Of a stretch of 64,000 bases of DNA, positions 42,113-45,100 are shown piece by piece. The translations under genes were made by a program, and so were the position numbers. Source of the stretch: Saccostrea echinata. Taxonomy: Eukaryota. The DNA lies in contig NW_026889755.1 in NCBI RefSeq assembly GCF_033153115.1, forward strand, positions 558,001-622,000, written 5' to 3'. The notes beneath the pieces are model-generated. The model was not told the origin of the DNA. It searched no databases and saw nothing but the letters and a program-made list of their open reading frames with translations. Numbering within the stretch: position 1 is the stretch's first letter; each line of letters starts with the position of its first letter.

Positions 42113-45100
42113 ATGAGAACTACTGATAATAGAGTCATGAGATATAGAATAGTTCTACTTTTTACAGGAATAACTCATATATTTGGATTTGGTATGTAAA
42201 GTATTTTACATTTTTATTTTCTTCCCCCCTGTCACTGAAGTTTGAGGGGATGAAGTAACGCCCTTTTGTAACTGTTTTTTTTTCAATTAACATAAAAACA
42301 AAACTAATCAGGATTGGAGAACAAAACCAGGACAAGGAAAAAAGCACTGGGATTTTTAAGCTTTGAAACAAAAGACAAAAATGTAAAAAAATAAATAAAT
42401 AAATAAATAAATGCTTTATTATTTATAATATCTTAATTTCGAATATCTTTCTATTATCTTAGCAGAAATCAGAAATCAGTTTGACAGGCGCGGATCATCA
42501 GATCAAACGAGACGCGAAGCGTCGAGTTTGGTCTGATGATCTGCGTCTCCCCTTTACAACTAACAAAAATAATAAAAGAAAATTTTTTGAATCAATAACT
42601 CAACTTTTGTCCATTAAATAAACCATTTTGTCAATGACATTTTTGATGCGCGAGAAAACACGTCATTTATCTGTGTAATACGTCATCAATTTCAGAGAGG
42701 GGTGATATGGATTCAGAAAACCACAGTGTGGTGATCTAGATTGTCGGATCACACCCTCACGTGATTGCATAAAGTCCACAGTAAAACTGAGTGACAAACA
42801 CTTGGGTATATGATAAGTTTCCTTCATTTAAGAGACTACCTGTCATATGTAACCATTTTCGGTTTTCTTTTTGTAAGTCCTCCAATCCACGTTTGACTCT
42901 GTACATCCTACTCACATACACATATCAATAACTCCTAAAATATTATACATGTCCTAGGAAAGGCAACTGTAGAGATACCAATGAGCTTGTTAATATATTT
43001 GTGCCAATATTAATTCTGGATTACTTTTATAAAGCCTAAAACTGTAGATTTTGAACATTCTTCAAACTGGATATTACTTTTTCCTTAATACTTTTAATGA
43101 TCAAAAACTGTAACTTCAGCAATTGCTTTACATGTACACAATTGCTTCTTATAAGATACCATACATTAATTATCTTTTCTTTTGAATTATCAAAAAAATT
43201 ACGATAAATAAAATTCAAATCTGTTTCTATAATTTCATTCCTCATAGAAGTGTTATCAAAAGGTAAAAACGCCACACAGTCAACAGTCCGATCATGTATT
43301 TCTTCTACTTCCTGTGGTCCAGATAAAGCTGTAGATGGCGATAGAAACACATGTATGAGGACAACTGATATAGGTCTATCCTCTACATACAAAACTGTTT
43401 GGTGGACTGTAGATCTCGGAGCCAATTACAGCATTTACAGCATTAGTATAGATTTTAAAGACTATAAGGAGTTTGGAGATTACGGTATGTTTTGCTATTG
43501 TCTACAAACTACAAATACTAAAATAAGGAATACTATTGGTTTAGACATATACTTATCGCTTTCTTTCGTTTTCTAAAAAAAGAGTTTCATAAGCGTCTTT
43601 ATCATTTCTTAAGGGATTAATTCATAATCGCTTTATTCTCCTCATGCCTTGCACTTTCTGTTGTTATTTGAATTATTGTTGCTTGATCTTCTTTGCTATA
43701 AAAAGTTAAAGGTATGTTTTTCACATTTGATAAATTTTGAAGTGTTTTTAAGAGGGAAAAATATTCACAGAAAAACAATTTGCAGAAATAGAGACCAACA
43801 TGTCAACAACATTTCATTTTTTAATGTACATGTAATATCAAAGACACATATTAAAGAAGACAGCATATTGTTGTTCTGAGAGGATTTCGCTTTATATTTC
43901 AGAGATGAGACAAAGAGGCCGTTTTGCTGGATTTTCTCTTTACCTTTCTTACACACCTAATATAAAGGATGATGTTCTTTGTTACAAAAACACGCTTCCA
44001 TTACCTCCCTTAAAGTTTAATACAACGTGTATTGGATATGGTCGTTACGTCATCTATTACAACGAAAGACTGGATGGAGTTTCTTACCCTGAAGGATACC
44101 AAACTCTGAATCTCTACACTGAGCTATGTGAAGTGACAGTACAAGGTTATTTTTTTTCAATTTGTTTTAATCAGTAATGTAATGATTTTTTTTCTTCATA
44201 AAAATATTTTATTCTTACCTGTAAAATTTTAACTTTAAAACACTTTAAGTTTAATTCTCTCGTAACTATCATAGAACCGATTTTTATGTTATCATATAAC
44301 ATATGAAATCTATACCCGCCTTGAGAGTTCTGCTTCATATAGATGCAAAAATAGGTCTGGTATAAACGTTTAGATCCTTAACTTTCTATCTTGTGCTTGC
44401 AAGAGTAGGAAATTAAAATCTGTGCAAATCATGGTACCCTTGGGTTGATTTGTGCTACTATCAAATGGAAATTATAGATAAAATATAGATGAATGCAACT
44501 CTAATGATCGTTTTGGCTAATATCGTAAACATTGCTCATAACAACAAAATACCAACTTGCCGTTCGTTTTGTAAATTTTCTTTAAATCAGGTTGTGTAGA
44601 AGAAGGATTTTATGGAAGTAACTGTAGCATACATTGTCCAATCAACTGTCAAAATCAGAGATGTAACATAGTCAACGGAGCATGCCTGGGGTGTTTTCCT
44701 GGATATGTAGGGGAGATGTGCGAAGGCGGTATGAAAACTAAGCTGTAAAATTAATAAAATTAACATTGCATGAGAACATTGATGTCTTAAATTTTATACA
44801 TTTCTAAATTCAGAATGTGCATGGGGGTTTTATGGTATGGAATGCAAAAAGAAATGTGGACATTGTAAAAGAAACACTTCATGTAACCACGTGACTGGTA
44901 ATTGTGATAGAGGATGTGCCGCTGGCTGGATTGGGAAACAGTGTAATCAACGTAATTATAAACGAAGTAGCCTAACAAAAAAGTATTGTTTATAAGTAGC
45001 CTTTTTTCTGGAGAGTAAATATCACTGTCAATACAATTAAAAAACCTTCGAAATTCCAAATTTTATTTTGTGAAAGTCTAAGGTTAATTAAAAAGAATAT

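What the first reader, a model, noticed from the sequence alone, without database searches (positions are those of the whole stretch)
42488..42546. Unrelated palindromic elements share a c-GNA-g apex, some with tandem GA/GA mismatches on the same strand
Seen: this hairpin is CAAAC-GA-GACGC-GAA-GCGTC-GA-GTTTG. On the minus strand the 11308-11423 hairpin reads AATC-GA-GGGCC-GTA-GCCCC-GA-GATT (plus an AA/AA mismatch) and the 34676-34838 hairpin reads GCCC-GAA-GGGC. Degenerate versions occur at 5323-5350 (ATCC-GTA-GGGAT) and 4561-4663. The arms share no obvious sequence. Known: d(GCGAAGC) and cGNAg triloops and tandem sheared G.A pairs are unusually stable in single-stranded DNA, and such hairpins are used by phage N4 promoters and some ssDNA origins. 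Inference: a class of non-autonomous elements selected for a stable hairpin on one particular DNA strand, implying an ssDNA or cruciform step in mobilisation (Crypton-like tyrosine recombinase or HUH enzyme). The GA/GA feature is clear in only two of the five.
Basis: partly seen in the sequence, partly recalled or inferred. Interest (0 to 1): 0.7.

Follow-up and report, generated by a model that had tools for sequence, protein, structure and literature searches.

The report
Crypton transposon ends fold single-stranded
This hairpin is the broken end of a small jumping element of a family moved by a Cre-like recombinase, and dozens of such families in this animal genome keep the same one-strand hairpin design, which suggests they likely move as a folded single DNA strand, as bacterial integron cassettes do.

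Summary
Four of the five hairpins are ends of 'terminal hairpin + tail' repeat families (A, B, C, E; 308-1781 search candidates each); 5323-5350 is unrelated. A and C ends are 96-99% identical to ends of autonomous elements encoding an intact DUF3504 tyrosine recombinase (CryptonA type); B matches a decayed one; E shares C's termini. All 20 hairpin clusters carrying both a stable DNA loop (cGNAg, cGNNAg, cTTg, cTTTg) and tandem GA/GA mismatches have them on one strand, though arms are unrelated. On that strand the hairpin is followed by an inverted copy of the joined ends, 2 nt shorter. Insertions show one crossover in a TA-N^N6-N-TA target, no duplication, and always the same strand's product. 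Best reading (inferred, 0.7): the folded single strand rebuilds the recombination site, as in CTX phage attP(+) and integron attC, rather than the double-stranded circle assumed for Cryptons. No intermediate was observed. The window's own copy is a dead remnant. Earlier notes of this scan reached the same reading on coral and other animal DNA and on another piece of this genome.

The parts
42481..42548 (+). Central 68 bp of the family A terminal hairpin: c-GAA-g apex with one CGAG/CGAG tandem mismatch; the outer arms, the element's hairpin end and the internal junction copy are deleted in this copy
   Evidence: consensus 52-119, 96% identity
42549..42816 (+). Tail and intact far end of the same family A copy (consensus 184-454, 90%); consensus 120-183 is deleted
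9703..11423 (-). Family B element (about 1.3 kb without insert): hairpin 11309-11419 with c-GTA-g apex and two tandem GA/GA sites in the consensus, junction copy about 11295-11308, tail with internal short repeats; interrupted by an unrelated insert at about 10720-11036
34431..34838 (-). Full-length family C element (408 bp, 98% to consensus): hairpin with c-GAA-g apex at 34756-34758 and 1- and 2-nt bulges, junction copy about 34664-34681, tail
   Evidence: loose ends in related organisms' contigs at 34430 and 34841
4360..4664 (-). Family E element with a central deletion of the hairpin; consensus apex c-GTTA-g; termini like family C
5240..5385 (.).

Best explanation
These hairpins are the conserved ends of non-autonomous and autonomous Crypton (DUF3504 tyrosine recombinase) transposons, and they likely let one DNA strand fold into the site that the recombinase would cut. 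Shown: on the strand with the stable loop every family reads hairpin, inverted copy of the joined ends, tail or gene, far end; targets have a TA-N^N6-N-TA core; the element keeps its own spacer at the hairpin end and the target's spacer lands at the far end; no duplication is made. Inferred: when that strand is exposed (lagging-strand template or cruciform), the loop and sheared GA pairs nucleate the hairpin and disfavour the other strand; the far end pairs with the internal copy; one strand exchange frees a single-stranded circle whose folded stem (7-nt spacer against 5-nt) is the only form that averages the 6-nt target spacer; one exchange on the same strand inserts it, and replication or repair completes the event.
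For: Identity: L127 (516-aa ORF with R249, K282, H377, R380, H403, Y412; DUF3504 and Phage_integrase hits; fold like Cre) ends in the family A hairpin at 96%; L137 carries the family C hairpin at 99% and C's far end at 84%. L388 is a decayed gene with a B-like hairpin (82%) and far end (72%). Hairpin type tracks recombinase clade, and gene orientation differs between clades while hairpin polarity does not. Strand bias: 408 co-stranded pattern matches (control 79) against 56 anti-stranded (control 161); 13 of 30 against 0 of 30 sit on a long hairpin; 20 of 20 clusters co-stranded, 17 of 17 after removing three ascertained ones. Orientation kept: 510 against 7 for C and a sister family, 91 of 100 listed for A. 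Mismatches get corrected in single copies (at least 6 of 48 A rows) yet stay in consensus. Junction copy 2 nt shorter in A, B, C, E and by eye in three more families; target arm spacing lies between the two. One-strand scar in 29 of 29 C, 27 of 27 B, 14 of 14 E, 17 of 19 A anchored copies. Clean empty sites: 17 of 21 paralogous sites without a gap near the join, and a contig of run X1 that skips exactly the 2879-nt autonomous C element.
Against: No single-stranded or circular intermediate was seen; the one end-to-start joint in contigs has 8 extra letters at genomic depth. A one-strand scar also fits double-stranded copy-out routes (PMC10214605). ViennaRNA DNA energies differ little between strands (0.3-5.2 kcal/mol). 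A whole clade (C-like) lacks GA/GA. 9 of 100 listed A copies and one of two autonomous A copies (L143) have the apex flipped. Cluster 10 reads a TTT loop with a decayed mismatch on the other strand. The TT and TTT loop classes were added after seeing the data (16 of 16 with GNA/GNNA only). Families share ancestry, so they are not independent draws. The elements encode no enzyme that makes single strands, and the GA sites lie 30-80 nt from the crossover.
Confidence: 0.7

Rival explanations
1. Double-stranded circle with a strand-biased single exchange (as for SE elements or VGJ phage); the hairpin would be a cruciform, enhancer or replication signal, not the substrate.
For: Accounts for the one-strand scar; bacterial SEs exchange one strand and have double-stranded circles (PMC10214605); a double-stranded circle is the standing Crypton model (PMC13565253) and a preprint reports circles for fungal Starships (search listing only).
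Against: Does not explain why the junction spacer is 1 nt longer and its internal copy 1 nt shorter than the target spacing in four families, nor why the loop and GA features sit on the exchanged strand.
Confidence: 0.16
2. The motifs are passive survivors: the palindrome folds now and then, repair removes ordinary mismatches and spares well-stacked GA pairs; or the structure acts in RNA. Recombination would not depend on it.
For: Arm-to-arm corrections and small inversions occur; C-like families do without GA/GA; RNA-type runs cover the hairpin region (RNA status is a guess).
Against: All four middle bases of GNA with a C-G closing pair occur, the DNA-specific optimum (PMC3201870); polarity follows the crossover strand, not the gene's direction; the junction copy and 2-nt rule need another cause; other long palindromes in the sample lack the motifs.
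Confidence: 0.08
3. An HUH enzyme (Helitron2/Helentron or Replitron type) moves these elements or supplies the single strand in trans.
For: Helitron2 elements also have asymmetric terminal inverted repeats and a terminal hairpin (PMC3627910); such elements are common in bivalves (search listings).
Against: Autonomous partners of 2-3.8 kb hold only the recombinase gene between the same ends; scars show recombinase-like TA-N8-TA geometry; hairpin arms are 60-100 bp. I did not search the genome for HUH genes, so a helper role is untested.
Confidence: 0.04
4. The two inverted site copies act like the 2-micron plasmid's pair: the recombinase flips the hairpin core to amplify a double-stranded circle.
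For: Flipped cores exist.
Against: Flips are 1-9%, not about half, and many are partial, as template switching in near-palindromes gives (that mechanism is recalled).
Confidence: 0.02

Closest known systems
CryptonA DNA transposons (Kojima and Jurka 2011, PMC3212892; Glomhoppers, PMC13465315)
   Same: Single DUF3504 tyrosine recombinase gene, about 2-3 kb elements, abundant non-autonomous derivatives, no target duplication, short homology at the crossover.
   Different: That paper found no terminal repeats in animal Cryptons (section 8; 'n.d.' in the supplement rows seen). Here the ends are defined: long one-sided hairpin, internal junction copy, TA-N8-TA target, one-strand scar.
CTX phage attP(+) (PMC4246890)
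   Same: Two inverted site copies about 90-150 nt apart with unequal central regions, neither fit alone, folded in one strand; one strand exchange; replication completes.
   Different: CTX uses host XerC/D, one fixed target and its own rolling-circle protein; these elements carry their own recombinase, use a loose target and have no Rep; folding is not shown here.
Integron attC / IntI (PMC4792948)
   Same: Sites conserved by structure, not sequence; designed strand asymmetry; micro-homology at the crossover; excision and insertion on one strand.
   Different: attC uses extrahelical bases read by the integrase's extra domain; here asymmetry is sheared GA pairs, mini-loops and a 2-nt spacer bulge; no cassette array; an I2-like insertion was not tested.
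SE elements and Tn554 (PMC10214605)
   Same: Tyrosine recombinase, strand-biased exchange, 6-nt spacer.
   Different: Double-stranded nicked circles, several proteins, and a donor-derived variable 6-bp footprint; here the carried spacer is fixed and element-owned.
DIRS retrotransposon internal complementary region (named in PMC13465315; its role recalled)
   Same: Internal sequence complementary to the element's ends in a tyrosine-recombinase element.
   Different: No reverse transcriptase here; 24 of 30 Phage_integrase loci unrelated to the Crypton set had no such hairpin within 1.5 kb.

Membership tests
Crypton (CryptonA type) | Autonomous partner encodes a DUF3504 / tyrosine recombinase | tested here: met
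   A, C; B, decayed relative; E only through termini shared with C
Crypton (CryptonA type) | Catalytic R-H-R-Y residues intact | tested here: met
   R249, H377, R380, H403, Y412 in L127; same columns in L137
Crypton (CryptonA type) | No reverse transcriptase, DDE or other gene between the ends | tested here: met
   elements of 2-3.8 kb with only the recombinase frame(s)
Crypton (CryptonA type) | No target-site duplication | tested here: met
   17 of 21 paralogous empty sites gap-free near the join; exact skip in run X1
Crypton (CryptonA type) | No terminal repeats (as published for animal Cryptons) | tested here: not met
   one-sided hairpin and 11-15 nt asymmetric inverted repeat; no symmetric TIR
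Crypton (CryptonA type) | Phylogenetic placement with reference CryptonA proteins | not tested
   the tree holds only proteins of this genome; the label rests on DUF3504/QRICH1 hits
Folded-single-strand recombination (CTX attP, attC) | Intra-strand pairing rebuilds a two-arm site with mismatched centre | tested here: met
   predicted fold of the end-joined strand in A, B, C, E; prediction only
Folded-single-strand recombination (CTX attP, attC) | Products of only one strand exchange | tested here: met
   29/29, 27/27, 14/14, 17/19
Folded-single-strand recombination (CTX attP, attC) | Enzyme cleaves the folded strand and not the duplex; single-stranded intermediate exists | not testable with these tools
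   contig data only
Helitron2 / Helentron | Asymmetric terminal inverted repeats plus terminal hairpin | tested here: met
   topology alike (PMC3627910), but the hairpin is far longer
Helitron2 / Helentron | Partner encodes Rep/helicase | tested here: not met
   partners with the same ends encode a tyrosine recombinase
MITE / DDE transposon | Symmetric TIRs and target duplication | tested here: not met
   only the rejected 5323-5350 site belongs to such an element

The most novel reading that the evidence does not exclude
Animal Cryptons are a eukaryotic counterpart of integrons and CTX phage: self-encoded tyrosine recombinases that excise and insert a folded single-stranded circle, with strand choice written in non-Watson-Crick DNA structure (sheared GA tandems, GNA mini-loops) kept across recombinases only 20-37% identical.
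Probability: 0.6. Interest if true: 0.87.

Novelty: new variant of a known kind. Interest (0 to 1): 0.74.

Why it matters
A 2026 review states that Crypton transposition has not been shown experimentally and assumes a double-stranded circle (PMC13565253). This work gives exact ends, a target core, a crossover position, young intact enzymes and a polymorphic insertion, so the mechanism becomes testable with oligonucleotides and one protein. If right, folded single-strand recombination, known from bacteria, also works in animals. It would also give a structural rule to classify many unassigned palindromic repeats (13 places in an unbiased 400 kb) and bear on Crypton-derived human repeats (Eulor5/6, PMC5753468) and DUF3504 genes; those links were not tested.

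Tried and rejected
5323-5350 as a member: rejected. The 37944-37972 hairpin: loop varies among look-alikes and is not C-G closed, not counted. Rfam scan of the window: no match. No recombinase gene in the window. No intact partner of family B among 60 DUF3504 and 30 Phage_integrase loci, only a decayed relative; those searches scored 150 of 309 and 99 of 693 candidates. Relatives with context in metagenome contigs: none, so generality beyond this genome and its close relatives was not tested. Sequencing runs: no RNA holder on record; no empty site for the window's own C copy and no exact circle junction among listed joints. Energy models barely separate the strands. My hairpin finder missed branched or bulged apices (L131, L162), found later by self-alignment; the 55 of 60 loci with a local inverted repeat include unrelated repeats and are not used as a count of ends. 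The tree is the quick version, 54 of 60 proteins. Literature searches found no paper on Crypton hairpin ends or a single-stranded route; Repbase/Dfam entry texts and subscription journals could not be seen and may describe the palindromes.

Full report
Setting. The window is G000:C6:558001-622000 of a 923 Mb animal assembly, about 32% GC, with EGF-repeat exons on the plus strand. An earlier AI note calls the genome an oyster; I did not verify that.

Observation. The hairpin at 42486-42548 has a c-GAA-g apex and a CGAG/CGAG mismatch; the hairpins at 11309-11419 and 34661-34853 have c-GTA-g and c-GAA-g apices on the minus strand. The combined motif occurs twice in the window, never in 100 shuffles. 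Each site is a copy of a repeat family: 578, 308 and 1781 first-look candidates, 40 scored each. The 4561-4663 site is a fourth family (1281 candidates) whose consensus apex is c-GTTA-g; the window copy lost its centre. The 5323-5350 site is part of a long-inverted-repeat element and does not pair in its consensus: rejected.

Anatomy. Read on the strand with the stable loop, families A (454 nt), B (about 1305), C (409) and E (367) all start with a hairpin of 55-90 bp arms, followed by a short stretch complementary to the element's far end, then a tail. A and B have two tandem GA/GA sites in consensus; C and E have bulges instead. The window's A copy (42481-42816) lacks its outer arms and this internal copy, so the anchor is a dead remnant; C (34431-34838) is whole.

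Partners. A DUF3504 search gave 309 candidates, 150 scored; I fetched 60 of them. L127 has a 516-aa frame ending 142 nt before a family A hairpin (96% over 186 nt) and carries A's tail segment upstream; L137 has the C hairpin (99%) and C's far end (84%) around a two-exon gene. Ten proteins tested all hit DUF3504, five also Phage_integrase; catalytic residues are intact in L127 and L137; the L127 model (mean pLDDT 63) matches QRICH1 and Cre best. L388 holds a broken gene with a B-like hairpin (82%) and far end (72%). Across 52 hairpins near these genes, 31 had an 11-nt or longer complement downstream on the loop strand against 8 upstream (control not length-matched); in about 22 loci of about ten families this pair encloses the gene (counted by eye). 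Hairpin type follows recombinase clade; in one clade the gene lies on the loop strand, in the others on the opposite strand, while hairpin polarity is constant. As a control, 24 of 30 Phage_integrase loci had no similarity to these proteins and none had a hairpin within 1.5 kb; 5 of the other 6 did.

Strand bias. Genome-wide, CGAG-N4-6-cGNAg-N4-6-CGAG has 408 matches (reversed-pattern control 79); the anti-stranded CTCG version has 56 (control 161). Of the first 30 loci each, 13 and 0 sit on a long hairpin. Clustering 264 hairpins from 1.52 Mb gave 70 clusters; of 45 with score 28 or more, 20 have both a stable loop and a tandem GA-type mismatch, and all 20 (31 mismatches) are co-stranded; 17 of 17 without A, B and one cluster picked by pattern; 16 of 16 with GNA/GNNA loops only. 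More families with the design appear. Other long palindromes lack it. GNA loops with C-G closure and CGAG blocks of sheared pairs are documented stable DNA structures (PMC3201870 and PMC10085684, passages). Against: families share ancestry, cluster 10 is ambiguous, and the folding model separates the strands by only 0.3-5.2 kcal/mol. Orientation relative to the tail is kept in 510 of 517 matches for C and a sister family and 91 of 100 listed A copies. At least 6 of 48 A rows have a GA site corrected to a perfect pair from the other arm, so the mismatches are erasable yet persist in consensus.

Insertion scars. With both ends anchored (19 of 30 A, 27 of 30 B, 29 of 30 C, 14 of 20 E loci), the hairpin end begins with a fixed element-owned spacer in 17, 27, 29 and 14 copies, and the far end is followed by variable target sequence. 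Targets show TA at -3/-2 and, clearly in A and C and weakly in B and E, TA at +8/+9, with a lean at +1 towards the element's first base. That is two arms around an 8-nt core cut one base in, the geometry I recall for Cre-type sites. Of 99 distinct copies, 27 joined flanks aligned across the join; 6 were self or tandem matches; 17 of the other 21 show no gap within 5 nt (by eye). A contig of run X1 skips exactly the 2879 nt of the autonomous C element at L137. A two-strand exchange without spacer homology should leave both strands' products; only one is seen.

The 2-nt rule. Joining the ends and comparing with the internal copy, the junction is 2 nt longer in A, B, C and E and by eye in three more families; one family was ambiguous. 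The target's second arm lies midway. So neither duplex site has the target spacing, and only the folded strand pairs a 7-nt with a 5-nt spacer. CTX attP(+) is built this way: two inverted sites with unfit central regions, folded in one strand, one exchange, replication to finish (PMC4246890, passages); integron attC sites are conserved by structure and recombine on one strand (PMC4792948, passages).

Mechanism. Shown: membership, end structure, strand bias, target core, one-strand scar. Inferred: folding in vivo, a single-stranded circle, cleavage of the folded stem, replicative completion, and the source of the single strand. The main rival is a double-stranded circle with biased exchange, as in SE elements (PMC10214605, abstract and passages).

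What is known. Kojima and Jurka 2011 found no terminal repeats in animal Cryptons (PMC3212892: abstract, sections 5 and 8, passages, three supplement rows). A 2026 review says the mechanism is undemonstrated and assumes a double-stranded circle (PMC13565253, passages). The Glomhopper paper has no mention of hairpin or palindrome (PMC13465315, passages). Eulor5/6 are Crypton-derived (PMC5753468, passages). Helitron2 features come from PMC3627910 (passages); PMC12810828 gave nothing (passages). Seven topic searches found no paper with this model; Repbase and Dfam texts were not available. I had noted the Crypton and junction-copy reading before looking at earlier scan notes, which report the same on other animal DNA and elsewhere in this genome; they are not counted as evidence.

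Verdict. Real, a new variant of a known transposon kind, with a specific and testable mechanism that is not yet shown. Interest 0.74.

Noticed in passing
L137:3500-4732: Contigs of two RNA-like runs (X1, X2) join across this part of the autonomous C element with GT..AG ends on the strand opposite to the recombinase gene: a possible antisense or host spliced transcript. A third run (X14) joins 4182-4692 with the gene's own intron polarity. RNA status is a guess.
   Followed up: no
L127:7189-9269, L123:2233-2598, L020, L144: These elements pile up next to and inside each other, including exact head-to-tail tandems; their AT-rich ends resemble the target core.
   Followed up: partly
L389:1514-1655 and 3703-3861: A recombinase gene related to family A's lies between two inverted copies of the same hairpin, one with a lengthened loop: possibly a double-ended or head-to-head element.
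   Followed up: no
L143:6040-6260: Second autonomous family A copy, 98% identical to L127, with the hairpin core flipped and a short deletion in one arm.
   Followed up: partly
window 37944-37972: Perfect 13-bp hairpin whose arms recur elsewhere with variable loops (L147, L010); probably the end of another repeat type.
   Followed up: no
window 10720-11036: About 315-bp insert with a simple-repeat tail inside the family B copy; looks SINE-like.
   Followed up: no
window 12734-46410 (+): At least ten Cys-rich EGF-like exons of a multi-EGF-repeat gene; the A and C copies lie between such exons.
   Followed up: no
window 699-3272 (+) and 62409-63362 (+): Long frames that look like endonuclease and reverse transcriptase parts of non-LTR retrotransposons (label by eye).
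   Followed up: no
window 33600-34085: Another high-copy repeat just upstream of the C element, seen from contig depth.
   Followed up: no
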